IMG/VR virus record: IMGVR_UViG_3300044638_006592
Span: 1 to 63,613 of that record
Source of the DNA: a virus
Lineage: Duplodnaviria > Caudoviricetes
Length of the DNA stretch: 63,613 nucleotides
Direction: 5' to 3' (one strand)
Below the pieces are notes generated by a model. It was not told the DNA's origin and did not search any database. It worked only from the letters and a program-made list of their open reading frames with translations. Each line of letters begins with the position of its first letter. Position 1 is the first letter of the stretch. Below are positions 684-62,517 of this stretch, piece by piece. The position numbers were made by a program, and so were the translations under genes.

Positions 684-1694
684 ATGAGGAAAGTATATAA
701 TTTTAATAAAAACCAAATAAATGATATGATTAATCTTTATGTGAATGAGATGAAATCGACTATGTTTATTTCTGAAAAATATAATGTTGATTCTTCAGTA
801 ATTAAACGAGTTTTAATTAAAAATGGTGTAGAAATAATAAAAGGGTCAGCATTTAGTGTTAATTTTTGGGTTAAAAGAGGTTTATCTGAAGAAGAATCAA
901 CTCGAAAAATTAAAGAAATGAAACCAAATTTAGTTGAACATTGGTTGTGTAGAGGATTTTCTATTGAAGAATCTAAATTAAAAACTGAATTACATTTAAT
1001 GAATACTGAAAGAGCGTTTATTGTAAAATATGGTAAAGAAGAAGGAGTTAAATTATTTAGAGAAAAAAAAGTTAAAGAGGGTAAATTACATTCACCAAGA
1101 AGTGTTGAATATTGGTTAAATAAAGGATTTTCTGTTGAGGAATCAAAAAATAAAGTTTCTGAAGGTCAGAATAAATTCAGTTTAGTTAAATGTATTGAAA
1201 AATATGGTGAAGAAGAAGGTAAAATAATATTTACTGAACGACAAAAAAAATGGCAAGAATCACTTTATAAGAATGGTAATTTAAAATCCGGATATTCAAA
1301 AGTGTCACAAGATTTATTCTTTGAGTTATTAAAATATTATAAAAATGTTGAAGAATTAAATTATGTTATGTTCGCTAAAAAAGGTGGTGAGTTTGTATTA
1401 ACCAGTAATGATGGGTTTTATCGTTATGATTTTACCGATTTATTAAATAAAAAAATTATTGAATATAATGGTGATAATTACCACGCTAATCCGGACACTT
1501 ATTCTGTAAATGAAACCCCAAATCCTTTTCGTAAAAATATCACATCTGAAGATATATGGAAAAAAGATGATATTAAGATTAAATTGGCGAATAAACATAA
1601 GTATGATGTTTTAATTATATGGGATTCCGAATATAAAAAAGATAAAGAAAAAGTTATAAAAAAATGTTTAAATTTTTTAAAAAATGAAAATTAA
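684..1694 (+). CDS. Free-standing homing endonuclease, Vsr/DUF559-like C-terminal nuclease domain
   Basis: C-terminal YDF...IIEYNGDNYHANP...KKDDIKIKLA...VLIIWDSEY; internal WxxRGFSxEES and KYGxEEG repeats; lies between the two intein halves. Confidence 0.75.
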   Translation: MRKVYNFNKNQINDMINLYVNEMKSTMFISEKYNVDSSVIKRVLIKNGVEIIKGSAFSVNFWVKRGLSEEESTRKIKEMKPNLVEHWLCRGFSIEESKLKTELHLMNTERAFIVKYGKEEGVKLFREKKVKEGKLHSPRSVEYWLNKGFSVEESKNKVSEGQNKFSLVKCIEKYGEEEGKIIFTERQKKWQESLYKNGNLKSGYSKVSQDLFFELLKYYKNVEELNYVMFAKKGGEFVLTSNDGFYRYDFTDLLNKKIIEYNGDNYHANPDTYSVNETPNPFRKNITSEDIWKKDDIKIKLANKHKYDVLIIWDSEYKKDKEKVIKKCLNFLKNEN

Positions 1695-2049
1695 AATTGG
1701 GGAATTATATGAAATTTACCAAAAATATGGTGATTTAGGTTTTAAAGTTAATACACCATATGGGTATAAAAATATTGAATGGTGTGGTATTACAGAAAAA
1801 AACGCGGATATATATAGATGTGAGTTAGAAAATGGGATGTTTGTTGAAGGTGCGGATTATCATAAATTAAAAAATGATAATGATGAATTTGTCGTTCTTA
1901 AAGAACTTCAAATCGGTGAAAAAATACAAACAATTAATGGTGATAGTTTGGTAACCAATGTTAAATTATTAGATGAAAAGGATACTCTTTATGACGTTCA
2001 GGTTGCTGAGGTTCATCAATATTATACAAATGGTATTGTATCTCACAAT
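1684..2049 (+). other. Split intein C-fragment (IntC, 122 aa)
   Basis: Block B-like GADYH, block F LYDVQV, block G SHN followed by +1 Thr. Confidence 0.85.
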
Positions 2050-3903
2050 ACAGTCTTAACGGTGGATTTACTATTGTTCTTATTCTTTAATGAGACAACC
2101 AAAACAACAAAGGCCGAAGAAATATTTAATCGATTTACCGATAAAAACAAAGTATCGGTAAAGGGTGAAATTAGTATTGATGGTGAGGATTATATTATTG
2201 TTAGGCAAATTGAAAGAAAGAAAGGTAAAACTGGTGAATGGAATGTTAAAACCGAATTAGATTTCTATAAAAAACTTTCGGATGGTAGTTTGCAGAACTT
2301 CACTGGTGAACAAAGAAGAGAAACCGAAAACTTCATTAAAACATCAATTGGTTCTAAGGAAGACTTTTTAATGACGATTTTAACAACTGCAAGTAATTTA
2401 GAAGAATTAATTGATTCCAAACCAACTGCAAGAGGTCAAGTTTTGTCTAGATTTATGGGGTTAGATTTTCTTAAAAGAAAAGAAGATGTTGCGAAAGAAA
2501 TCTATACTGAATTTGCATCTTCGATGATATCTAAAGTTTACAATAGTGAAAAACTAAAACAGGATAACGAAGATTATAAAATAAAAATTCAGTCATTTAA
2601 AGATGAGAATACTAATCATCAAAATGATTTAATCCTTGTTCAAGACAGAATTATTAAAGGTCAAGAATATAGAGATGGTCTTTTAAAAAGTAAGCATACT
2701 GATATTGATAAGGAAATCACATTATTGTCTCCCGATAAAGTTACTGGTGAAATTTTATCATTAGAAACACAAAAAAAAGGAGTTCAAAAACAACTTGAAG
2801 AAATAAAAGTGATTGAACCATCATCGTATTATCACGAAGATGAACATGATTTGATAAAGGAAGAGACCAAGAAAACATTCCAACAAAAAGTTGAAGTGGA
2901 AATAAAAATCAAATCTATTGAAGAGTTGAAAAGTTCTGTTAGTGGTGGTATTAAGTGTGAGCATTGTGGTATTGAGTTAATGAATGCGGCGATTACAAAT
3001 TCTAAAATATCTCAACTTGACGGATTTATCGTGCATAAAACTCAATTATTAGGGTTAATGCAGGATTTAACCAACAAAGAACAGGCGTTTGTACAATTAA
3101 AAAAGGAATTTGATGAGTATGAAAAAAACAAACTAATCAAAGAAAAGCATGAGTTAAACATTGAAAGTTTGGATATGAAAATATCAAATCTTCAAGACAA
3201 GTTATCGAAATACAATGAACTTCAGGATAAGATTAAAGAAAATGAAAAAACTGAAACTTTAATCATTAAAGCGGGTTTAAAATTGGATGAATTGGAATCT
3301 GAAAAAACTAATTTATCAAGAAAAATTGATACGAATAATTTTCAAATTAAATCATTCGATGATAAAATTGAAAATAATAATAAATTGATTCAAAAAATCA
3401 GTGAAGAATCTGAGAAAGAAAAGATATATAAAGTTTATTTGGATATCTTTGGAAAGAATGGTATTTCTAAAATTATTATGAAAACAATGATGCCATTAAT
3501 TAATTCAGAACTACAAAGATTACTTGAAGACAGTTCACATTTTAGATTAGAAGTTCGAATTAATGATAAGAATGAAGTTGAGTTTATAATGATTGACAAT
3601 AATACTCAAGTAGAAAAACTTATGGCTTCAGGTTCAGGTTATGAAAGAACCATAGCATCATTAGCTCTTAGGTCTGTTTTAACTAAAATTTGTTCATTAC
3701 CAAAACCAAATATTGTGGTAATGGATGAAGTTTTTGGTAAGATATCTAATGATAATTTGGATATGGTAGGTGAGTTTTTCAATAAGATTAAGGAATATTT
3801 TGAAAAAATATTTTTAATTACCCATAATCCGTTGGTAACCAACTGGTCTGACAACGTTATCAAGATTAAAAAGGTGGATAATATAAGTTTTGTCACACAA
3901 TAA
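1684..3903 (+). CDS. sbcC: Split-intein C part fused to SbcC/Rad50 C-terminal fragment
   Basis: LYDVQV...YYTNGIVSHN/T intein end, then coiled coil, CEHC zinc hook, signature SGSGYE, Walker B IVVMDEVFG, H-loop LITHN. Confidence 0.9.
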   Translation: MKIKIGELYEIYQKYGDLGFKVNTPYGYKNIEWCGITEKNADIYRCELENGMFVEGADYHKLKNDNDEFVVLKELQIGEKIQTINGDSLVTNVKLLDEKDTLYDVQVAEVHQYYTNGIVSHNTVLTVDLLLFLFFNETTKTTKAEEIFNRFTDKNKVSVKGEISIDGEDYIIVRQIERKKGKTGEWNVKTELDFYKKLSDGSLQNFTGEQRRETENFIKTSIGSKEDFLMTILTTASNLEELIDSKPTARGQVLSRFMGLDFLKRKEDVAKEIYTEFASSMISKVYNSEKLKQDNEDYKIKIQSFKDENTNHQNDLILVQDRIIKGQEYRDGLLKSKHTDIDKEITLLSPDKVTGEILSLETQKKGVQKQLEEIKVIEPSSYYHEDEHDLIKEETKKTFQQKVEVEIKIKSIEELKSSVSGGIKCEHCGIELMNAAITNSKISQLDGFIVHKTQLLGLMQDLTNKEQAFVQLKKEFDEYEKNKLIKEKHELNIESLDMKISNLQDKLSKYNELQDKIKENEKTETLIIKAGLKLDELESEKTNLSRKIDTNNFQIKSFDDKIENNNKLIQKISEESEKEKIYKVYLDIFGKNGISKIIMKTMMPLINSELQRLLEDSSHFRLEVRINDKNEVEFIMIDNNTQVEKLMASGSGYERTIASLALRSVLTKICSLPKPNIVVMDEVFGKISNDNLDMVGEFFNKIKEYFEKIFLITHNPLVTNWSDNVIKIKKVDNISFVTQ

Positions 3904-13954: not shown

Positions 13955-14884
13955 ATGAACACTGAAAATTTATATGATGCCCTTGGAGTTTCAGAAACCG
14001 CAACCCAAGATGAAATAAAGAAGGCTTACCGAAAATTGGTGATTGAACATCATCCTGATAAGGGTGGTGATGAAAGTAAATTTAAAAAAATCGCTCATTC
14101 TTATGATACTTTAGGTGACCCCAATAAACGAGCACAATATGACAACCAAAGAAAGAATCCATTTGGAAACCAAAACGGAGGGTTTAACCCATTTGAAGAC
14201 TTCTTTAATGGTGGTGGATTCTATAATCAAAGAAAAAGAAGTGCTCCTGAAAAAGTAATTGACCTTACAATTGGTGTGATTGAATCATATAAATCTGTTA
14301 ACAAAACTATAACATATAGAAGAAATATTGAATGTAATACTTGTCATGGTAGTGGTGGAGATAGAAAAACATGTGATACTTGTAAAGGTGAAGGATTCTC
14401 AACAGTAAGAGTTGGAACTGGAATGTTTGTACAACTTATGAGACAAGTATGTAATACATGTAGAGGAAATGGTTATGTATTAACAAAAAAATGTACGACC
14501 TGTGATGGAAATACCACAAAAAATGTTACAGAAACAATCGATATCAAATTACCACATGGAGTTGATGAAGGTCAATTCTATAGACTTGAAGGAAAAGGTG
14601 ATTTCTCAAAAGGTATGTATGGTGATTTAATACTAAGAATTAAAATAGCTCCACAAGATAACTTCGAGAAATTAAATAATGATTTAGTGTATAACGCTTA
14701 TCTAGGTTTTGATGACCTTCAAAAAGATTCATTGGAAATACCACATCCATCAGGAACAGTTTCCGTTAAATTACCAAAAGAATTTGATTCCTCAAAACCA
14801 CTTAGAGTTAAAGGAAAAGGATTTAGTACCAACGGAGTTGGGGATATGTTTATTAAACTTATTGTTAAGTTCAATAGGAATTAA
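13955..14884 (+). CDS. dnaJ: DnaJ chaperone
   Basis: J domain with HPD, G/F-rich linker, four CxxCxGxG-type repeats, C-terminal domain. Confidence 0.95.
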   Translation: MNTENLYDALGVSETATQDEIKKAYRKLVIEHHPDKGGDESKFKKIAHSYDTLGDPNKRAQYDNQRKNPFGNQNGGFNPFEDFFNGGGFYNQRKRSAPEKVIDLTIGVIESYKSVNKTITYRRNIECNTCHGSGGDRKTCDTCKGEGFSTVRVGTGMFVQLMRQVCNTCRGNGYVLTKKCTTCDGNTTKNVTETIDIKLPHGVDEGQFYRLEGKGDFSKGMYGDLILRIKIAPQDNFEKLNNDLVYNAYLGFDDLQKDSLEIPHPSGTVSVKLPKEFDSSKPLRVKGKGFSTNGVGDMFIKLIVKFNRN

Positions 14885-15049: not shown

Positions 15050-15553
15050 TTAAAATTTATAATAATACACAAATTTACCATTAATTTCTTCAAAAGTAAA
15101 GTCGGACATGTCAGATTCAATAATTTGGGTATCACCTGATGTATCAACAACAATCATATTATGTTTTAGTGTATTGAACAATTTACCTGGGTGTCTTATC
15201 GATGTATTTAAAGTCAAAACCAATTCATTATTTTTTGTTCTATTCAACCAAAAGTGATAATCAAAATTATCGATATTATCCCTAATAATTAGTGCACATT
15301 CCTTCATTTTTGGGTCGGGATTACATCTATTCAATATTTTGTTTGATTGATTGAATACAACATCTTTAATCTCATCTAAAGAGTTAACCACCTCGTCATT
15401 AAAAATCCTTTGGAATCCAAGTTTACCCTGATTATCCTGAGAATGTTTATTATAAACAACTTTAACCTTTTGACCCGAATATGAAATATATTTCTTCAAT
15501 AGGGTCGAAAATTGTTCAACAATGATGTATTTTAGAGTTTCGACTAGTTTCAT
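15050..15553 (-). CDS. Hypothetical protein with N-terminal IIVE motif
   Basis: MKLVETLKYIIVEQ; ATATTTAT upstream on the minus strand. Confidence 0.6.
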   Translation of the reverse strand: MKLVETLKYIIVEQFSTLLKKYISYSGQKVKVVYNKHSQDNQGKLGFQRIFNDEVVNSLDEIKDVVFNQSNKILNRCNPDPKMKECALIIRDNIDNFDYHFWLNRTKNNELVLTLNTSIRHPGKLFNTLKHNMIVVDTSGDTQIIESDMSDFTFEEINGKFVYYYKF

Positions 15554-15596
15554 TGTAGATAAATATCTTTATAATTGAAACTATTATGGTTTAATA

Positions 15597-16148
15597 TTAT
15601 TGTTTTGGTGTATACTCCCTCAATTTGTCGGTATCTTCCAACAGGTATGGTGTTGGATAAAAGAGACCCAAAGGTGTATACTCACTCAATTTGTCGGTCT
15701 CTTCCAACTTATCCATCAATTCTACTGCTCGAGGTTGAGGTGTATACTCCCTCAATTTGTCGGTCTCTTCCAACAAACTATCGTCATTGATGCAGGTCAT
15801 GGCGGGTTTATACTCCCTCAATTTGTCGGTCTCTTCCAACTGGCGTGAAGTTGGCACATTGTCCATCATTGGTGTATACTCCCTCAATTTTTCGGTCTCT
15901 TCCAACCATATATTCATAATTGATTGAATTTCAGTGTACTCCATACCAAAAAATGACTCAAAAAATGACCAAATTTGATTATAATCAATCCAAAATTTCT
16001 TAGTTTTTAAATCTTGGTTAATTACAAAAATATCACCTTTTTTATAAAATATAGAATTTGGATAATAATCATGTTTGTACATTTTCATTTTATCCAAGTT
16101 AAAATTATCATTTAACCACTTTAACTTAATCTTTGTTAATTTATCCAT
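15597..16148 (-). CDS. Small phage protein (paralog of 31698..32048) whose C-terminus reads through a CRISPR-like array
   Basis: Shared YPxSIFY...QDLKxKxF...IWxFFESFFGMxY...IWLEET; then LEETDKLREYTP five times at 22 aa period. Confidence 0.75.
   Translation of the reverse strand: MDKLTKIKLKWLNDNFNLDKMKMYKHDYYPNSIFYKKGDIFVINQDLKTKKFWIDYNQIWSFFESFFGMEYTEIQSIMNIWLEETEKLREYTPMMDNVPTSRQLEETDKLREYKPAMTCINDDSLLEETDKLREYTPQPRAVELMDKLEETDKLSEYTPLGLFYPTPYLLEDTDKLREYTPKQ
15607..15906 (-). CRISPR. CRISPR-like mini-array 1: 5 x 36 bp repeats, 4 x 30 bp spacers, no cas genes in window
   Basis: Repeat GTTGGAAGAGACCGACAAATTGAGGGAGTATACACC (minus strand) at 15607-15642, 15673-15708, 15739-15774, 15805-15840, 15871-15906; spacers unique and exactly 30 nt. 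Confidence 0.8.
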
Positions 16149-16170
16149 ATATTAATTTTTATATAAAATA

Positions 16171-16198
16171 TCAAACCCCCCAATTAAGGAGGGTTTGA
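16171..16198. terminator. Rho-independent terminator-like hairpin
   Basis: TCAAACCCCCC-AATTAA-GGAGGGTTTGA. Confidence 0.6.
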
Positions 16199-16375
16199 TT
16201 TTCACCATTAAGGTTGAGGTATTTCTACCCGAATCGAAACTCCCGATTCTTGGAGGTTGGGTTTTCTTCCCCAGGATTTCCCGACATTCCTTTTCACCAT
16301 TAAGGTTGAGGTGTTTCTACCCGAATCGATACCCCCGATTCTTGGAGGTTGGGTTTAAGGATTTCCCAACATTCC
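16199..16375 (-). ncRNA. Tandem pair of ~90 nt GC-rich structured repeats; putative small RNA
   Basis: Copies at 16199-16290 and 16291-16375; GAATCG/CGATTC stem conserved while loops vary; bracketed by a promoter and a terminator. Confidence 0.5.
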
Positions 16376-16386
16376 CGTTTGATGAT

Positions 16387-16419
16387 ACAAAGATAAGCCA
16401 ATTTTTTGAATTTACAAAA
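16387..16419 (-). promoter_or_regulatory. Bacteroidota sigma70-type promoter
   Basis: Minus strand TTTTGTAAATTCAAAAAATTGGCTTATCTTTG fits -33 TTTG / -7 TAnnTTTG. Confidence 0.65.
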
Positions 16420-16438
16420 CATTTATCAAAAAAAAATT

Positions 16439-16535
16439 TAGTCAGGACAGGATTCGAACCTGTTCCACGGCAAGTGATTGGTACTGACCTTTCGGTTACT
16501 CCCATTTCCGCCCGCTACCATTACGGCACCTGACT
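16439..16535 (-). tRNA. tRNA-like RNA or pseudo-tRNA; no assignable anticodon
   Basis: Acceptor AGTCAGG/CCTGACT, D-loop-like AATGGTA, perfect T arm ACAGG-TTCGAAT-CCTGT; central region long and non-canonical. Confidence 0.6.
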
Positions 16536-16540
16536 AATAA

Positions 16541-16993
16541 TTATTCATCAAAATCGTAATTCAGTTGTATAAACTCTTCAAAATCTAGTTCATATTCTTC
16601 ACAAATATCTTTAATTTGATTTATTTTTGTTAATATTTTGACAATAGCTTGATTTAATTTTTTAACATGTTCTACTAGATTATCAATTTCACCTTCTATT
16701 GAATCACAATGTTCACATTCATTATCCCAATCTTGGTGGAAAAATGAATCACCATAATTATCAATTTTAGAAAATAACTGCAATACAACATGATTATCTT
16801 TTTCATCATCAAGGTTATATTCTACTTGAATGAATCCTGATGTTGATGATATGAATAGTTCATAAAAACATCCTTTTGAATCTGAATCTTCAATATTATA
16901 TCTTATTTTTAATTCTTTAAGATAGTTTTCAATTATTTCCCTAACATTGTCTTTTGTTATTTCCATATTATTCTGATTTAAAATCACGTTCAA
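16541..16993 (-). CDS. Hypothetical acidic protein
   Basis: ORF; real start probably MEITKD near 16966. Confidence 0.55.
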   Translation of the reverse strand: MNVILNQNNMEITKDNVREIIENYLKELKIRYNIEDSDSKGCFYELFISSTSGFIQVEYNLDDEKDNHVVLQLFSKIDNYGDSFFHQDWDNECEHCDSIEGEIDNLVEHVKKLNQAIVKILTKINQIKDICEEYELDFEEFIQLNYDFDE

Positions 16994-31697: not shown

Positions 31698-32048
31698 ATG
31701 AAATATCTTATAACGGAATCAAAAGTAAGGGAAATTGCGTTAAAATGGATGAATGATAATTTTAGTCCAGACCAATTGGAAATTGTTAAAAGTCCAAAAT
31801 ATCCTGACTCAATTTTTTACAGAAAAAATGGTCAAGTTGTTATGGAACAGGATTTAAAAAAGAAAAATTTTTACTTTCATTATGATGAAATTTGGTTATT
31901 TTTTGAATCGTTTTTTGGTATGAAATACTCTGAAATAGAACAACTTATGGAGATATGGTTGGAAGAGACCCTTAATTTAGAGGAATATACACCTATCAGT
32001 GAGTACGTAATCAATGGCATTGGTGGTTGGAAGAGACCCTTAATTTAA
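31698..32048 (+). CDS. MKYLITES-family protein whose 3' end is repeat 1 plus spacer 1 of CRISPR-like array 2
   Basis: Paralog of 15597..16148; LEETLNLEEYTP is encoded by the 36 bp repeat. Confidence 0.8.
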   Translation: MKYLITESKVREIALKWMNDNFSPDQLEIVKSPKYPDSIFYRKNGQVVMEQDLKKKNFYFHYDEIWLFFESFFGMKYSEIEQLMEIWLEETLNLEEYTPISEYVINGIGGWKRPLI

Positions 32049-32323
32049 AGGGATATACACCTAGATTATGGTTTTAGGTTGCCATCAGCTAGTTGGAAGA
32101 GACCCTTAATTTAAAGGGATATACACCTTTTCATAATAAATTCTATTTTATTGTTACGTTGGAAGAGACCCTTAATTTATAGGAATATACACCTCAATAC
32201 CGCGATAAAAATGGACGGACAGGTTGGAAAACACTCTCAATTTAGAGGGATATACACCCAATGATTCAGGTATATCGCAGATGTTTTAGTTTAAAAATAC
32301 TCTCAAATTAAAACAGAATCACC
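31958..32323 (+). CRISPR. CRISPR-like mini-array 2: 5 x 36 bp repeats plus one degenerate terminal repeat; spacers 32/30/30/29/30 bp
   Basis: GTTGGAAGAGACCCTTAATTTAAAGGGATATACACC-type repeats at 31958, 32026, 32092, 32158, 32223; degenerate copy 32289-32323; internal CCCTT/AAGGG stem. Confidence 0.85.
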
Positions 32324-48152: not shown

Positions 48153-49217
48153 AATTTTAATTTTACTATAAATATTCAGTTTTCAGTATATTTATTACAT
48201 ATGCCAACAGGAGATATTGCTTTAGATATTGTAAATTATATTAATAATGGTGAATTTGATGAAGTTCTACCATATTTTGGGGATTTTGAAACTGCGTTAA
48301 ATTTTCTTAAAAAGAAAGGTTACTTACATCTTTTAGACCCATTTGAAGTTCCTGATGAGTTTAGAAATGGTTTAATTCATTTTCTATTAAGTGAGAAAGA
48401 AACCAGAGAGGGAACATTAAAAACGTTAATATCAAGATTAAGTGATGTTAAAGAAGAAAACGGACAATACTATCTAATATTGGATGGTCGAGAAGAATTG
48501 GCGGATTTATTCAAAGAATATAGTAGAGATACATCACCTTATGATGCGGCTAAATCAGTATTAAGTGAGGATTATTGGGAACCATTTTATGACCTTGGAG
48601 AAAATGTTTATAGGGATGTTGTTGAAGAATTAAATCCTGATAATAAAAATTATTTGAAGAGTTTTATACTTGATAAATTAAAAGATACAAAAATAGAATT
48701 GGATGGTCAGTCTTCGGAAGAGATGGAATTAATTGCTTCAGAACAAGGACATGATGACCATATGATTGTAAATCAAGAAAATATTGATAGAATATTAGGT
48801 GATGAAGAAACGATGGATTGGTTATTTAAAAATGATTTAGATGGTTTACATTCAGACCTTGGTAATATATACAACAATGCTTACAATAGTGCTTACACAG
48901 ATGAAATTTATAATAAAGTATGGGATGAATTATTAACGTACATAGATGATAAAGTAGTTGAAGATTTCAAATGGGGTAAAGGGTATTATCGTCAAAAGGT
49001 AAAAATAACCAATCGTATAAATTCAGTAATTGATGACTGGTTTGATGAATATAAAAATCATTCAGACGATTTTGATTATTATGGTTCTTATTTAGGTATA
49101 ATCCAACAACTTATGAATGAGGGTAACTATGAAAAATTGAGTTTTAGAATTCCTGACTATGCTGACTCTAGTGATGTTGAAAACAATGTCAATCAAATGT
49201 TACGGGATTATATTTAA
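48132..49217 (+). CDS. Acidic hypothetical protein
   Basis: Likely start MPTGD at 48201 after ATATTTAT. Confidence 0.6.
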   Translation: MFSSITHNFNFTINIQFSVYLLHMPTGDIALDIVNYINNGEFDEVLPYFGDFETALNFLKKKGYLHLLDPFEVPDEFRNGLIHFLLSEKETREGTLKTLISRLSDVKEENGQYYLILDGREELADLFKEYSRDTSPYDAAKSVLSEDYWEPFYDLGENVYRDVVEELNPDNKNYLKSFILDKLKDTKIELDGQSSEEMELIASEQGHDDHMIVNQENIDRILGDEETMDWLFKNDLDGLHSDLGNIYNNAYNSAYTDEIYNKVWDELLTYIDDKVVEDFKWGKGYYRQKVKITNRINSVIDDWFDEYKNHSDDFDYYGSYLGIIQQLMNEGNYEKLSFRIPDYADSSDVENNVNQMLRDYI

Positions 49218-49588
49218 TCGTAAAAAGTTTTAATTTTTAAATTATATTTTGATTCGAACCATTCTTTAAATGGTTTTTTCCACCTACCTTCAAATAAAGA
49301 ATATAATGTGTTTGCTAACTCAGTATCTAATTTTAATGCGGGTAAATAATTTAGTTCCTCACCATATTCTTTTTTCTTAGGCGAATTTAATACTTCAGGA
49401 TATGGATAATAACTTATGACAGGAGTATCATAGTCATTTTCTTGAAAACAAATTTCTTCAAAGTTGACACCCATATCCCAATCAAAAGCACTACAATCAA
49501 ATTGTTCTAAATTCTGTAATTCAGGTATATCTTCAATATACTTCATTATAACCTTTTCTAAATTTGATTCTGTTATTATATACTTCAT
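49214..49588 (-). CDS. MKYIITES-family protein
   Basis: Leader MKYIITESNL; tail FKEWFESKYNL. Confidence 0.65.
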   Translation of the reverse strand: MKYIITESNLEKVIMKYIEDIPELQNLEQFDCSAFDWDMGVNFEEICFQENDYDTPVISYYPYPEVLNSPKKKEYGEELNYLPALKLDTELANTLYSLFEGRWKKPFKEWFESKYNLKIKTFYD

Positions 49589-52688: not shown

Positions 52689-53063
52689 TTATTCAGAATC
52701 AACGCTCTTAACAGGTTTTGATAAAAACTTCTCAAACCAAATCGGACCATATTTTTTAAAAATCTCTTCAGTAAAGACTCCTATTATTTTTTCGTATAAT
52801 TCATGATTAATAACCACAATTGGAAATTCTTCAGGTTCATACCTTTCTTCATAACCATAATCATTTGTGTCTTTATAATACGAAAAAAACCAAGGTGCTG
52901 ATTCATAACCACCTTCATCATCGGTTTCATGCCATTCTATCGGATGATAAGATAAACCACCCCAACGTGTATTAGAATACTCTTCAACATTAGTCATACC
53001 AACTCCATGTAAGTATGAATTGAGAATGTTTAATAATTTTTGTTCCGAAATATTATAATTCAT
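52689..53063 (-). CDS. Phage protein with MNYNISE leader
   Basis: Leader motif and IWFEK tail. Confidence 0.6.
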   Translation of the reverse strand: MNYNISEQKLLNILNSYLHGVGMTNVEEYSNTRWGGLSYHPIEWHETDDEGGYESAPWFFSYYKDTNDYGYEERYEPEEFPIVVINHELYEKIIGVFTEEIFKKYGPIWFEKFLSKPVKSVDSE

Positions 53064-53087
53064 TAATAATAAATATCTGATAAATGA

Positions 53088-53489
53088 TTATTCAAGATTC
53101 ACATTATCAATTACTTTATTAACCGCAACAGTTCTTTCACTTAATGAGCATTGAATATCAAAAATATTTTTATTTAACACCCAATCTAACAAATCATTTA
53201 AATCGGAATTTAAGGATGTGATTTTTTTTATATTTGTTGACATATATTCTTTTACAAACAAACAAAGAAATTCATCAGTTTCAGGGTATTCCAATGAAAA
53301 AATCGTAAAAAATGTTGAAAAATATTGTTCTCTCCAAAAAAGAGTACCTTCCCTATTAACCTGAAGATACCAATATTTTGAATTTGGATTAATAAACCAA
53401 ATATTCCCATTTAAATTAATCACGGAAACATCCGAAAAATCATCTTTGATTTTATCAGATAAAGTTTTCATCATTTTAGGATGTATCAT
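53088..53489 (-). CDS. Hypothetical protein, possible distant relative of the array-bearing genes
   Basis: WF...YFSTFFTIFSLEY...FVKE pattern; weak 22 aa periodicity in the tail. Confidence 0.5.
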   Translation of the reverse strand: MIHPKMMKTLSDKIKDDFSDVSVINLNGNIWFINPNSKYWYLQVNREGTLFWREQYFSTFFTIFSLEYPETDEFLCLFVKEYMSTNIKKITSLNSDLNDLLDWVLNKNIFDIQCSLSERTVAVNKVIDNVNLE

Positions 53490-56113: not shown

Positions 56114-56416
56114 ATGAAATATCTAATAACTGAGTCAAAGTTAAAACAGACATTATTCAAATATTATGATTCAATTTTTGAAGATTGGTATTTTGTGGAA
56201 AATGGTGATTGGGAAGGAGTGTCAGTTCCAAAATATAATGGTGAACTTTTAATCGGTTATAAAAAAGATGACCCAAATACTGGTTATTATTGGGGTGATG
56301 TAATAGGTATTGATTTTATTGAATCTTTATTTGGGTTACCAAATGATGAACAAAAACAATATTTAAAAGAATATGTGGAGGAAAAATTTAATTTAAAATT
56401 TGACACTTTAATGTAA
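56114..56416 (+). CDS. MKYLITES-family protein
   Basis: Leader MKYLITESKL; tail KEYVEEKFNL. Confidence 0.65.
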   Translation: MKYLITESKLKQTLFKYYDSIFEDWYFVENGDWEGVSVPKYNGELLIGYKKDDPNTGYYWGDVIGIDFIESLFGLPNDEQKQYLKEYVEEKFNLKFDTLM

Positions 56417-60478: not shown

Positions 60479-61069
60479 ATGAGATTTATTATTACTGAAA
60501 CACAATATAAAAAGTTTTTAACTTCTAGCTCTAAAATGAGTGACTCGATAAAGAACTATTTAAATACATATATTTCAAATGGTAAACGAAAAATAGGGAT
60601 TAAATCTCGTAATTATGGTAATTTACGAGAAGATTGGTGTGTTAAGGGAAAAGAAACCATTACTGCAGTTTACTATTTTGAAAATGGAGAACCCATCCAA
60701 GGAAATTTATATGTTTCAAAATCACTTATCGATGAAATACAATCTTTTTTTAGTGTGAGAAAATCATATGTAATTCAAATAATTGAGGAATGGTATGATG
60801 AAACTATGGTTCCTGAATTTGAAAAAATAATAGGTGAAAGTGGTTTACATATAACGGATATTAATGACATTGAAGAACATGATTGTATTTCTGAACCAAC
60901 AAAACCTGAAGGAATTACTGATGAAGAAATGATTGATTTTATTGATAAGAATACTGCATATAGAAGAGTGGAAATCATTGATAAAATTAAAACAGGGGAA
61001 AGAGACCTTGAAGATTTCTATTTGGACATTGTAGATACTGTAGAAAGAAAAAAACAATTAGGTTTTTAA
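60479..61069 (+). CDS. Phage protein with MRFIITE leader
   Basis: Leader motif. Confidence 0.6.
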   Translation: MRFIITETQYKKFLTSSSKMSDSIKNYLNTYISNGKRKIGIKSRNYGNLREDWCVKGKETITAVYYFENGEPIQGNLYVSKSLIDEIQSFFSVRKSYVIQIIEEWYDETMVPEFEKIIGESGLHITDINDIEEHDCISEPTKPEGITDEEMIDFIDKNTAYRRVEIIDKIKTGERDLEDFYLDIVDTVERKKQLGF

Positions 61070-61556: not shown

Positions 61557-62149
61557 GATTAGAAGAAACCATAAGAAGAATATTAAGGGAAGAAACTCAG
61601 GGTATTAATAAATTTATTGATACAATAGATTCCAAATTTAGATTATCGGAAGATTTAAAACAATTTTTGATTGATTTTATTAATAAATCAAATTGTAAGA
61701 ATATTGAGTTTTCAGGATTTAAAGCGCCAGCATTTGGTTTTGCTTTACATGATGGTGTACTAATTAATAAAATCATTTTAAATAATCAATTAGATTTTAT
61801 ATTGTTTGTTATTTTTCATGAGGTTGCTCACCAGTATCAATTTAAGAAATATGGTGTTGAAAAAATGTATGAATGTTATGTTGGAGATATGAGTGTTGAA
61901 GATGCTGCTAAATTCATGAAAAAAACTGAAGAAGTTGCTGATGATTTTGCCGCAAGAAAAATGAGAGAATTATATAAAAAAGGGTTAATTGATAGGTTAT
62001 ATATTGCACCTCAAATGTATAAAAATATGCCATTGAGTCAATTGATATTTATGATAAGTAATTATAAAAATCAGATGAAGAGTAAGAATATAACATCACC
62101 TGAGAAAATAAGTGAGTTTTTTTATAATATGGTTAAAAGTGAATTATGA
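61532..62149 (+). CDS. HExxH zinc-metallopeptidase-like protein with RRILREE leader
   Basis: FHEVAHQYQ...EEVADDFA; likely start MRLEET. Confidence 0.65.
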   Translation: MCKENEKMRLEETIRRILREETQGINKFIDTIDSKFRLSEDLKQFLIDFINKSNCKNIEFSGFKAPAFGFALHDGVLINKIILNNQLDFILFVIFHEVAHQYQFKKYGVEKMYECYVGDMSVEDAAKFMKKTEEVADDFAARKMRELYKKGLIDRLYIAPQMYKNMPLSQLIFMISNYKNQMKSKNITSPEKISEFFYNMVKSEL

Positions 62150-62517
62150 GATTACAAGAAACCATAAGAAGAATATTAAAAGAAGAATCCAAAAGAGATG
62201 AGATAATAGATTTATATCTAGCCAAAAGGATTTCATCTTTTACAAAATTTGATATGAAAGACGGATTACATCCAAGAATAGAATTTGTTGATGATAAATT
62301 ACACCATACAATGGTTGTAATAGATTTTAATAGACGTACACAGAAAAATGAGGTTCATATGGATGATAGTTTATATGGTGAAATATATAATATGTTTTCT
62401 ATGGATGGTTTTGAAGAAATACAAAAACATTTAAAAAGATGGTTTTCTAATAATTTTGATGGATTAAATGATATAAGTGAAATAGACACATTTGAAAATG
62501 ATGAATACATATATTGA
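62146..62517 (+). CDS. Phage protein with MRLQETIRRILKEE leader
   Basis: Leader motif; LKRWF tail. Confidence 0.6.
   Translation: MRLQETIRRILKEESKRDEIIDLYLAKRISSFTKFDMKDGLHPRIEFVDDKLHHTMVVIDFNRRTQKNEVHMDDSLYGEIYNMFSMDGFEEIQKHLKRWFSNNFDGLNDISEIDTFENDEYIY

What the first reader, a model, noticed from the sequence alone, without database searches (positions are those of the whole stretch)
15597..16148. CRISPR-like array translated as the C-terminus of a protein
Seen: five 36 bp repeats and four unique spacers of exactly 30 bp (66 bp = 22 codons) lie inside an ORF that stays open through all units, giving LEETDKLREYTP plus 10 variable residues each time. The first repeat supplies the end of the core domain (IWLEET), where other family members here have a WFExKY-like tail. 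The repeat ends GTTGGAAGAGACC and TATACACC are shared with array 2, but the internal hairpin is broken here (CCGAC/GAGGG). Inference: spacer acquisition, probably by host Cas1-Cas2 in trans, is either used to diversify a protein tail or the gene acts as leader/decoy. I know of no described system like this.
Basis: partly seen in the sequence, partly recalled or inferred. Interest (0 to 1): 0.85.

Follow-up and report, generated by a model that had tools for sequence, protein, structure and literature searches.

The report
CRISPR array translated as protein tail
A lake jumbo phage carries a small gene whose last codons are the first repeat of a CRISPR-style array, so each newly inserted spacer adds 22 amino acids to the protein, and related phages keep only spacers that leave this reading frame open.

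Summary
Window 15597-16148 (minus strand) is one 183-aa ORF. It consists of an 80-aa folded core followed by five 36-nt repeats and four unrelated 30-nt spacers, with a period of exactly 66 nt.

It behaves as a CRISPR-type array. Thirteen strain variants share the gene-distal spacers, differ at the gene-proximal end, and show internal unit losses. The spacers are unrelated to each other and have 43% GC, against 21% for the gene core. The repeat is 29/36 (gapped) identical to repeats that lie next to cas13a in bacterial MAGs.

No cas gene was found in the window, or in a related phage record that CheckV rates 100% complete. Host Cas1-Cas2 acting in trans is therefore inferred, not shown.

The same small-gene family is multi-copy (1270 representatives) and carries such arrays in several subfamilies.
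- In this lineage, 13 of 13 distinct spacers are in frame and stop-free.
- In a sister subfamily (type C, not in the window), 133 of 133 are. The other five frames give 37-73%. Old spacers there also show excess synonymous change.
- Two further subfamilies, including the window's array 2, and bacterial arrays show no such bias.

Best reading: a CRISPR array taken into a coding sequence and translated as a modular, mostly disordered tail. Why the phage keeps it is unknown. I found no description of this in print.

The parts
15597..16148 (-). Whole ORF (183 aa): core domain plus translated array 1 and its stop codon
   Evidence: Thirteen cluster representatives have a near-identical core and lengths 139/161/183/205 aa, plus one of 182 aa.
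15907..16148 (-). Core domain coding region upstream of repeat 1 (aa 1-80)
   Evidence: AlphaFold2 pLDDT is 83-94 over aa 1-89, with a helix, four strands and two helices. GC is 0.21.
15871..15906 (-). Repeat 1 (leader-proximal). It encodes LEETEKLREYTP, the end of the last helix of the core.
15841..15870 (-). Spacer a (MMDNVPTSRQ), the newest in this strain. A 116-nt contig in one lake run holds it outside any repeat context.
15805..15840 (-). Repeat 2 (variant TATAAACC)
15775..15804 (-). Spacer b (AMTCINDDSL). The unit carrying it is missing in several strains.
   Evidence: A contig in run X8 skips 66 nt, 15742->15809.
15739..15774 (-). Repeat 3 (consensus)
15709..15738 (-). Spacer c (QPRAVELMDK), shared with L023 with 1 mismatch
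15673..15708 (-). Repeat 4 (variant GAGTGAG, also present in L023)
15643..15672 (-). Spacer d (LGLFYPTPYL), the oldest. It is identical in L023 and present in 11 of 13 variants.
15607..15642 (-). Repeat 5 (trailer end, variant GATACC), followed by K-Q-stop at 15597-15606
16170..16199 (-). Terminator-like 12-bp hairpin just upstream of the gene. No such site lies between the array and the next gene.
15050..15553 (-). Co-directional downstream ORF (167 aa, no family match), starting 43 nt after the array ORF's stop
31698..32048 (+). Paralogous gene (116 aa) whose last codons are repeat 1 of array 2. A 32-nt first spacer shifts the frame, and the ORF stops in repeat 2.
31958..32258 (+). Array 2: five repeats (starting at 31958, 32026, 32092, 32158, 32223) with spacers of 32, 30, 30 and 29 nt. 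The last repeat is degenerate and the hairpin is intact.
   Evidence: L009, L095 and P0014-P0018 show different spacer sets.
49214..49588 (-). Array-less family member (tail WFESKYNLKIKT...)
52689..53489 (-). Two array-less family members (52689-53063 and 53088-53489)
56114..56416 (+). Array-less family member
60479..61069 (+). Array-less family member (longer ORF)
62146..62517 (+). Array-less family member (tail WFSNNFDG...)

Best explanation
The 183-aa ORF is a small jumbo-phage gene fused to a CRISPR-type array.

**Architecture (shown).** Repeat 1 doubles as the last 12 codons of the folded core, the end of its C-terminal helix.

**Growth (pattern shown, enzyme inferred).** New 30-nt spacers enter at this gene-proximal, leader-like side, with duplication of the 36-nt repeat. 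This is what a Cas1-Cas2 integrase does. Because the phages carry no cas genes, the host's enzyme acting in trans is inferred, most likely one serving a type VI system, which the repeat resembles.

**Translation (selection shown for subfamily C, suggested for this lineage).** A unit is 66 nt, or 22 codons, so each acquisition adds a 22-aa module of 12 constant and 10 spacer-encoded residues to a mostly disordered C-terminal tail. In this lineage, and in sister subfamily C, only spacers that are in frame and stop-free persist. In C, old spacers also evolve under purifying selection in that frame. The array is therefore translated, and an intact ORF matters.

**RNA role (inferred).** The repeat's central hairpin is lost here while the repeat ends are kept. 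This suggests the crRNA role has been given up while the array remains competent for integration.

**Function (inferred, open).** The likeliest purpose is that the core must stay joined to conserved distal modules, with new modules serving as raw material for a variable interaction surface.
For: **CRISPR-type dynamics**
- L023 shares the two gene-distal spacers and their repeat variants, but has two different gene-proximal spacers.
- L094 and run contigs lack one internal unit.
- The 13 protein variants read: abcd, eabcd, fgcd, acd (four times), eabd, hfcd, cd, ijkl, mif, gd.
- Of 1275 spacer pairs, all but 3 orthologous pairs are no more alike than shuffles.
- Spacer GC is 0.43, against 0.21 for the gene core and 0.285 for the window.

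**Resemblance to type VI**
- The repeat is 36 nt and the spacers 30 nt.
- Gapped identity is 29/36 (A1) and 30/36 (type B) to repeats in bacterial MAGs. In 5 of 8 neighbouring ORFs tested, those repeats lie beside Cas13a (E about 1e-200).
- The orientation is the same, and the bacterial arrays have the same terminal repeat degenerate at its 3' end.

**No phage cas genes**
- Cas1: 0 of 5 phage records.
- Cas13a model: 0 of 5 phage records. The model rang in 3 of 3 bacterial genomes used as positive controls.
- None of 13 large ORFs of the phage record G001, which CheckV rates 100% complete, nor any of 3 window ORFs, hit a Cas effector.

**The gene-array fusion is conserved**
- 33-34 of 96 unique family ORFs carry repeat 1 in their last codons plus at least one spacer.

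**Translation**
- A1: 13 of 13 distinct spacers are in frame (12 of 30 nt, 1 of 27 nt) and stop-free. The A2-like subfamily gives 43 of 65 (Fisher p 0.009).
- Type C at DNA level: 133 of 133 stop-free in the repeat frame, against 49-97 of 133 in the other frames (p 2e-26). 132 of the 133 spacers are exactly 30 nt.
- Type C codon differences (synonymous:non-synonymous) are 16:12 in frame, against 3:24 and 7:20 out of frame.
- Bacterial control arrays: 46-58 of 85 stop-free.
Against: - There is no direct evidence of transcription or translation. The RNA-library contigs did not cover the array.
- No cas genes, no host and no host array with this repeat were found. The ends pattern gave 0 hits in 185,579 species genomes.
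- No convincing protospacer turned up. INPHARED gave only chance hits, 0.99 Mb of related phage DNA gave none, and there is one unverified 116-nt contig.
- For this lineage the sample is only 13 spacers. Per-spacer null rates of 0.52-0.66 give p = 2e-4 to 5e-3 before correcting for the several lineages looked at.
- With 79% of bacterial spacers being 30 nt long, frame-keeping alone is only p about 0.05.
- The strongest selection evidence comes from subfamily C, which is not in the window.
- The tail is predicted disordered and the core has no structural or family match, so no function can be assigned.
- The window's own array 2 is not read through.
Confidence: 0.6

Rival explanations
1. This is a non-coding phage mini-array, or an RNA decoy of the Racr or crRNA-flooding kind, for the host's Cas13. 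The gene merely supplies the promoter and leader. The mRNA's 3' part is processed into crRNAs or sequesters Cas13. Translation through the array is incidental.
For: - Orphan arrays with host-like repeats are known in huge phages (PMC7162821, passages read). Viral mini-arrays and solitary repeat units are also known (PMC11656645 and PMC10651486, passages read).
- The repeat resembles type VI-A repeats.
- Array 2 and type B behave this way. They have an intact or partial hairpin, 29-31-nt spacers, stops at the null rate and a truncated terminal repeat.
- No spacer matches the phage itself.
Against: - In array 1 the central hairpin is not predicted.
- 13 of 13 spacers are in frame and stop-free, and 133 of 133 in type C, with synonymous excess in that frame. 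A purely RNA role does not predict either result.
- The stem is only weakly better kept in array-bearing than in array-less paralogues (4.31 against 3.62 of 6 pairs).
- No Cas13 host is known for these phages.
Confidence: 0.17
2. Tolerated parasitism, or an integration sink. The gene's native C-terminal helix happens to look like, or has evolved to mimic, a host CRISPR leader-repeat junction. Host Cas1-Cas2 keeps inserting spacers into phage DNA. Selection only removes insertions that break the ORF or cut off conserved distal modules. The added modules have no function of their own, though the sink may lower host immunisation.
For: - Array-less paralogues keep a homologous W-V/F-E-N/x-K/T tail, and even GTTGA(A/G)AAT at DNA level. 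The motif therefore belongs to the protein family.
- What arrays 1 and 2 share is the repeat ends, which is what an integrase recognises, not the middle.
- The distal modules are the conserved ones: spacer d is in 11 of 13 variants, and CDVKVRVPWK is in 17 of 50 type C proteins.
- The tails are predicted disordered.
Against: - Phages could escape insertions by synonymous change, yet they keep several arrays per genome, with up to 9 repeats each. This suggests a benefit.
- Purifying selection on old spacer peptides shows that at least some modules matter.
- A sink predicts many phage-derived spacers. None was seen, although such spacers would be purged if Cas13 were active.
Confidence: 0.18
3. 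This is an ordinary protein tandem repeat, with a 22-aa unit and a hypervariable linker, that evolves by slippage, unequal crossing-over and point mutation, with no CRISPR-type insertion.
For: - The ORF is open throughout and the period is a multiple of 3.
- Rfam has no CRISPR-DR match.
- No cas genes are nearby.
Against: - The repeats are kept at DNA level, including third codon positions, while the spacers are as unlike each other as shuffled sequence (type C median 8/30).
- The spacers have twice the GC of the gene.
- New units appear only with novel sequence at the gene-proximal end.
- In array 2 and type B, repeats beyond the stop codon stay conserved although untranslated.
- The repeat is 80% identical to repeats next to cas13a.
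Confidence: 0.05

Closest known systems
Orphan or compact CRISPR arrays and mini-arrays of viruses (huge phages: Al-Shayeb et al. 2020, PMC7162821; archaeal viruses and a survey reviewed in PMC11656645)
   Same: A phage-borne array without cas genes. It is short (1-9 units). Its repeats resemble those of bacterial CRISPR systems. It presumably depends on host Cas proteins.
   Different: - Here repeat 1 lies inside a conserved protein-coding gene of a multi-copy family.
- In two lineages the whole array is an ORF under frame-preserving selection.
- The repeats are about 80% identical, not identical, to any bacterial repeat found.
- No spacer was found to target a related virus.
Type VI-A (Cas13a) CRISPR arrays of bacteria
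   Same: - 36-nt repeat and 30-nt spacers.
- A GTTG(G/A)A... start and an ACACC end.
- A stem-loop in the 3' half (array 2, some type B).
- A leader-proximal full repeat and a terminal repeat degenerate at its 3' end.
- The same orientation relative to transcription.
   Different: - No cas13a in the phage.
- The hairpin is lost in array 1.
- The array overlaps coding sequence.
- In bacterial arrays only 54-68% of spacers are stop-free per frame. Reading from the first repeat closed within 0-2 units in 9 of 10 arrays.
Type VI-B (Cas13b) direct repeats (Smargon et al. preprint 10.1101/092577, passages read)
   Same: 36-nt repeat, 30-nt spacers and a 66-nt unit. Subfamily C's repeat ends in CAAC and is predicted to pair its two ends.
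   Different: Array 1 ends in ACACC and its ends do not pair.
RNA anti-CRISPRs (Racr) and solitary repeat units (Camara-Wilpert et al. 2023, PMC10651486)
   Same: Phage-encoded mimicry of CRISPR repeats that could titrate Cas proteins.
   Different: - Racrs are solitary, non-coding small RNAs.
- That survey found none for type VI, and it masked ORFs before searching (passages read). It could not have seen these.
- Here spacers are present and turn over, and the sequence is coding.
Diversity-generating retroelements and other phage protein-diversification systems (recalled, not tested)
   Same: A phage protein's C-terminal region is made hypervariable by a dedicated DNA-level mechanism.
   Different: DGRs rewrite a fixed-length variable region from a template by mutagenic reverse transcription. 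Here unrelated foreign 30-mers are inserted as new modules. No reverse transcriptase or template repeat was seen.

Membership tests
CRISPR array (structural definition) | Direct repeats of 23-47 nt separated by unique spacers of similar length | tested here: met
   Five 36-nt repeats with at most 1 mismatch, and four 30-nt spacers. The spacers are unrelated to each other.
CRISPR array (structural definition) | Polarised growth: new spacers at one (leader) end, old spacers shared at the other, plus internal deletions | tested here: met
   Thirteen variants, L023, L094, and a 66-nt skip in a run contig.
CRISPR array (structural definition) | Degenerate terminal repeat | tested here: met
   Array 2's last repeat has 3 mismatches in the fixed ends. 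Type B and C arrays end in truncated repeats. Array 1's last repeat has only 1 variant base.
CRISPR array (structural definition) | Spacers derive from foreign DNA (protospacers exist) | tested here: inconclusive
   - Spacer GC is 0.43 against 0.21 for the gene.
- One 116-nt contig holds spacer a outside a repeat context.
- There are no matches in INPHARED, in IMG/VR exact scans, or in 0.99 Mb of related phage DNA.
CRISPR array (structural definition) | Adjacent or genomic cas genes | tested here: not met
   - Cas1: 0 of 5 phage records.
- Cas13a: 0 of 5.
- No Cas effector among 16 large ORFs.
- The window is only 22% of its genome.
Type VI-A (Cas13a) array | Repeat sequence related to repeats that flank cas13a | tested here: met
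   29/36 (A1 against L083) and 30/36 (type B against L086 and L083) gapped identity. Cas13a lies next to those arrays.
Type VI-A (Cas13a) array | Stem-loop in the 3' half of the repeat, followed by a short flank next to the spacer | tested here: not met
   Array 1's repeat does not form it, and its minimum-energy fold is a different 5' hairpin. The feature is met in array 2 and in some type B repeats.
Type VI-A (Cas13a) array | Processing and use by Cas13a | not testable with these tools
   Host unknown. No RNA reads lay on the array.
Viral mini-array for inter-virus competition | Spacers match related viruses | tested here: not met
   The queries were 184 spacers. Of 448 hits of at least 22 nt in 0.99 Mb of related phage DNA, all lie inside arrays except a contig-end copy of array 1's own spacer and one AT-rich 22/30 match that hits two loci.
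Racr / solitary repeat unit | [quoted passage not shown] | tested here: not met
   The repeat lies in an ORF and carries spacers. Expression was not testable.
Ordinary protein tandem repeat | Units, including the variable parts, related by duplication and divergence | tested here: not met
   Spacer pairs are no more alike than shuffles (maximum 17 matches in both). The type C median is 8/30.

The most novel reading that the evidence does not exclude
Jumbo phages have turned CRISPR spacer integration into a generator of new protein sequence. A gene end that doubles as a leader-repeat junction lets the host integrase add random foreign 10-residue modules to a family of phage proteins. Selection keeps the translatable ones and fixes useful ones, such as the widely conserved CDVKVRVPWK module. 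On this reading the phage uses this DNA-level, modular protein-diversification system in its conflict with the host.
Probability: 0.3. Interest if true: 0.95.

Novelty: categorically new. Interest (0 to 1): 0.88.

Why it matters
CRISPR arrays are regarded as non-coding. Here the array is also an open reading frame whose integrity is under selection, and it grows by what looks like spacer acquisition.

If this holds, three things follow.
- Adaptation machinery can write new coding sequence into a gene. That would be a previously undescribed route to modular protein diversification and de novo peptide birth.
- Phages expose integration-competent repeat mimics to host Cas1-Cas2. This bears on how adaptation chooses its targets, and on anti-CRISPR strategies against RNA-targeting type VI systems.
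- Surveys that mask ORFs before looking for viral repeats miss a large class. SRUFinder did so (PMC10651486). This family has 1270 cluster representatives, and subfamily C alone gave 1127 proteins.

It also gives a natural data set for studying how random peptides become functional. It comprises hundreds of dated insertions with a known order.

Tried and rejected
**Family, fold and RNA-family searches**
- Rfam found nothing on the array, either at gathering threshold on the whole window or at E<=1 on 15500-16600.
- Pfam and PHROGs found nothing significant for the two array genes or the downstream ORF.
- Foldseek of the A1 model against BFVD and PDB gave no hit at E<=0.001.
- The ESM Atlas returned only unnamed viral clusters.

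**Host search**
- The repeat-ends pattern gave 0 hits in genome contigs.
- A looser two-repeat pattern gave 33 stretches. These supplied the VI-A comparison but no identical repeat.
- A very loose single-repeat pattern over 88 genomes of the class of G011 matched at the control rate and was useless.
- 133 spacers from those bacterial arrays gave only short chance matches to the phage DNA.

**Protospacers**
- blastn of both arrays against INPHARED gave only E>=0.09.
- Exact IMG/VR scans found only the array itself for spacer h, and nothing for a 20-nt core of spacer a or for the flank of the candidate protospacer contig.
- A local search in 0.99 Mb of related phage DNA found nothing convincing.

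**Transcription**
- The two metatranscriptome runs hold only 0.06 of the sampled words. Their contigs do not cover the array. This says nothing either way.

**Hairpin covariation**
- Stem pairing in type B is only slightly better in array-bearing than in array-less paralogues. This was not decisive.

**Operon-polarity idea**
- The idea was that stop-free spacers are needed to keep a downstream gene expressed. It fits array 1, which has a co-directional gene 43 nt downstream and no terminator. It also fits array 2, which has a convergent neighbour and tolerates stops.
- It does not fit L013's type C array, where by my own reading of the sequence, not by an ORF call, a convergent gene follows. 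I left it as a minor idea.

**My first guess**
- I first guessed from memory that the repeat was type VI-B-like. For arrays 1, 2 and type B this gave way to the tested VI-A resemblance. It may still hold for type C.

Full report
**What is there.**
- The window is an IMG/VR virus record of 63.6 kb with 28.5% GC. CheckV estimates it at 22% of a genome, so it is a fragment of a jumbo phage.
- On the minus strand, ORF 15597..16148 (183 aa) contains five 36-nt repeats spaced exactly 66 nt apart. Each has at most one mismatch to the consensus, and no shuffle of the window produced a match.
- A second array lies on the plus strand at 31958-32258. It shares the first 13 and last 8 bases of the repeat but has a different middle.
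- Both arrays begin inside the last codons of paralogous small genes, which are 55% identical over 83 aa.
- In array 1 all four spacers are 30 nt and stop-free, so the ORF runs through the whole array.
- In array 2 a 32-nt first spacer shifts the frame, and the ORF ends in the second repeat.
- RNA folding predicts the central 5-bp hairpin for the array-2 repeat but not for the array-1 repeat.

**It behaves as a CRISPR array.**
- A closely related viral contig (L023) has the same gene and five repeats. Its two gene-distal spacers, and the two repeat variants next to them, are the window's (one mismatch in one spacer). Its two gene-proximal spacers are entirely different.
- A metagenome contig (L094) has the window's spacers a, c and d but lacks b. 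A contig in a lake run skips exactly 66 nt at that place.
- A search of 5.8 billion proteins returned 13 cluster representatives with a near-identical core. Their lengths are 139, 161, 183 and 205 aa (steps of 22), plus one of 182 aa.
- Their tails, read as spacer strings from gene to trailer, are: abcd, eabcd, fgcd, acd (four times), eabd, hfcd, cd, ijkl, mif, gd.
- This pattern is the signature of CRISPR adaptation: conserved trailer spacers, novel spacers next to the gene, and occasional internal loss.
- Of 1275 pairs among 51 spacers, only 3 are alike, and these are orthologous copies. The rest do not exceed shuffled controls.
- The window's array-1 spacers have 43% GC, against 21% for the gene core. 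Of all 51 spacers, 53% reach 40% GC, against 14% of 30-mers in the window.

**Which CRISPR type it resembles.**
- The repeat-ends pattern found no bacterial genome. A looser two-repeat pattern found 33 stretches.
- The closest repeats come from Alpha-, Beta- and Gammaproteobacteria, Binatia and other MAGs. They share the GTTG(G/A)A start, a stem-loop and the ACTACACC end.
- Eight large ORFs beside such arrays were tested. Five are Cas13a (E 1e-103 to 1e-226), one is Cas12g and two are unassigned.
- Gapped identity is 29/36 for array 1 and 30/36 for the type B phage repeat.
- The bacterial arrays have the same orientation, an upstream leader, and a terminal repeat that decays in its 3' part, as in the phage arrays. 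Their spacers are 30 nt in 73 of 92 cases.
- Subfamily C's repeat ends in CAAC and pairs its two ends. These are features the Cas13b preprint gives for VI-B repeats (passages read).
- The arrays are therefore type VI-like by architecture and sequence. Use by a Cas13 was not testable.

**No cas genes on the phage side.**
- Cas1 was found in 0 of 5 phage records, one of which CheckV rates 100% complete at 293,850 bp.
- A Cas13a model was found in 0 of 5. The same model rang in 3 of 3 bacterial genomes used as positive controls.
- Thirteen ORFs of 727-1610 aa from the record rated complete, and three from the window, hit no Cas effector.
- Cas1 is present in 3 of 5 of the bacterial genomes that carry the related VI-A arrays.
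- Insertion by a host integrase in trans is thus an inference.

**The gene family.**
- An HMM iterated over the ORFs of all fetched loci found 96 unique members. Eight are in the window and eleven in the record rated complete, and they often lie in tandem.
- 33-34 of the 96 have repeat 1 in their last codons, followed by at least one spacer.
- Four repeat/gene subfamilies were seen:
  - A1 (this finding).
  - A2 (the window's array 2).
  - B (GTTGAGAATACC..., encoding WVENTLQMKVTNT).
  - C (GGTGGAAGAGGT..., encoding WVEEVLNHKVSTT).
- Array-less paralogues keep a homologous W-V/F-E-x-K/T tail.
- A profile of the family finds 1270 cluster representatives at E<=1e-3.
- AlphaFold2 gives a confident core over residues 1-89, with helix, four strands and two helices. 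Repeat 1 forms the end of the last helix, and the array-encoded tail is low-confidence (pLDDT 41-54).
- The type C protein has the same core. Its tail is also low-confidence, except for a short strand at the widely conserved module CDVKVRVPWK.
- No family or fold match suggests a function.

**Is the array translated under selection?**

The null expectation comes from four comparisons.
- Across 51 spacers known at DNA level, 43 are stop-free in the repeat's coding frame. The other five frames give 21-35 (Fisher p 2e-4; test).
- In 85 spacers of bacterial VI-A arrays, 46-58 are stop-free per frame. Reading from the first repeat closes within 0-2 units in 9 of 10 arrays.
- In the A2-like subfamily (55 proteins, 65 spacers entered in frame), 43 are read through and 22 contain a stop. 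Only 21 of the 43 are followed by an in-frame repeat.
- Type B spacers are 29, 30 and 31 nt long in equal numbers (11 each), and 26 of 33 are stop-free.

Two lineages depart from that null.
- All 13 distinct A1 spacers are stop-free, and all are multiples of three (twelve of 30 nt, one of 27 nt). Fisher p is 0.009 against A2-like. The chance of 13/13 stop-free is 2e-4 to 5e-3 for per-spacer rates of 0.52-0.66. The chance of 13/13 in frame is 0.05 at the bacterial rate and 9e-5 at the A2-like rate.
- Type C gives a decisive result at DNA level that does not depend on gene calling.
  - The seed pattern allowed periods of 63-69 nt and returned 40 viral stretches.
  - After dropping four giant-virus-bin loci with 24/27-nt units, 53 unique arrays hold 133 unique spacers, 132 of 30 nt and one of 27 nt.
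  - All 133 are stop-free in the repeat frame, against 97, 49, 85, 77 and 95 in the other frames (p 2e-26).
  - With the looser set, 165 of 166 spacers are stop-free, and 62 of 63 arrays are read from repeat 1 to the last repeat.
  - Among 16 near-identical spacer pairs, codon differences (synonymous:non-synonymous) are 16:12 in the repeat frame, against 3:24 and 7:20 in the wrong frames. These pairs are not independent.
  - Type C proteins number 1127 at E<=1e-5, with lengths in 22-aa steps.
  - In 50 parsed proteins, modules seen in three or more proteins lie towards the trailer (mean relative position 0.68), against 0.45 for singletons.

**Reading.**
- Arrays A2 and B look like ordinary phage mini-arrays that happen to start in a gene.
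- Arrays A1 and C look like the same element taken into the coding sequence. Insertions continue, but only those that keep the frame open survive. Older modules are constrained as protein, and the VI-A-type hairpin has gone.
- For the window's array 1 this rests on 13 spacers and on analogy with C, hence a confidence of 0.6.
- Still open is whether the phage gains from the added modules, from offering an integration sink, or from an RNA effect on Cas13.

**Context and literature.**
- The locus starts after a terminator-like hairpin (16199-16170). It runs without a predicted terminator into a co-directional ORF at 15553.
- The stretch occurs in 16 lake-water metagenome runs from 16 studies.
- Huge phages are known to carry compact arrays without cas genes (PMC7162821, passages read). 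Viral mini-arrays and solitary repeat units are also known (PMC11656645 and PMC10651486, passages read).
- The SRU survey reports no type VI case, and it masked ORFs before searching.
- Four full-text searches listed no paper whose title or abstract describes a translated CRISPR array or an array embedded in a phage gene. I saw only listings, plus the passages named above. Supplements were closed.

**Limits.**
- There are no expression data, no host, and no verified protospacer.
- The window lacks 78% of its genome.
- The protein-database evidence depends on others' gene calls, although truncated variants of at least 100 aa would have been listed.

Noticed in passing
window 16439-16535 (-): A tRNA gene of 97 nt. 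Rfam RF00005 scores it 44.4 bits at E 6e-8 and covers the full model. ARAGORN did not call it, and the gathering-threshold Rfam run on the whole window missed it. Its length suggests an intron or other insertion. It is conserved in L023.
   Followed up: partly
window 16199-16264 and 16291-16356: Two copies of a 66-nt element, 92 nt apart and 95% identical, lie between the tRNA and the array gene. DNA contigs of two runs 'go back 92', which means a different copy number. The only RNA-library contigs that lay on the stretch cover 16212-16300. Function unknown.
   Followed up: no
window 13955-14884 (+): A phage-encoded DnaJ-like ORF of 309 aa. By eye it has an HPD motif and four CxxCxG zinc-finger repeats in the translation. 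The repeats also show as a 39-nt direct repeat family. The name comes from my own reading, not from a family search.
   Followed up: no
window 1684-3903 (+): A 739-aa ORF that matches the SbcC-like subunit (phrog_77, E 5e-36) and PADLOC LmuB (E 6e-10). A similar ORF in G001 also hits LmuB.
   Followed up: no
P0036, P0056 (homologues of the array-2 gene): In these two proteins the ORF reads through one spacer and a truncated repeat straight into the next family paralogue. The result is a two-domain fusion joined by a spacer-encoded linker.
   Followed up: no
Type C proteins P0069-P0120; loci L099-L138: The spacer-encoded module CDVKVRVPWK, with variants such as CDVEVRVPWK, recurs in 17 of 50 type C proteins, even where the cores are only about 50-60% identical. 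It is the only part of the tail that AlphaFold2 predicts as a strand. This suggests a spacer that became a fixed functional element.
   Followed up: partly
L011 / L013 / many type B loci: The truncated terminal repeat GTTGAGAATACCTAACTAA carries a stop codon in all three frames (GT-TGA, ACC-TAA, AAC-TAA). Translation therefore ends there whatever the length of the preceding spacer.
   Followed up: partly
G011 (genome of L086), C1:1358960-1362330: The bacterial MAG whose repeat is closest to the phage type B repeat has a cas13a-like gene interrupted by 6 in-frame stops (2 TAG, 4 TAA), and one Cas1. It is either a decaying locus or carries assembly errors.
   Followed up: no
L102, L106, L111, L114 (giant-virus-bin contigs): These matched the type C seed pattern but have 24/27-nt 'spacers' and overlapping registers. 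They are probably an unrelated protein repeat, and I excluded them from the strict count.
   Followed up: no
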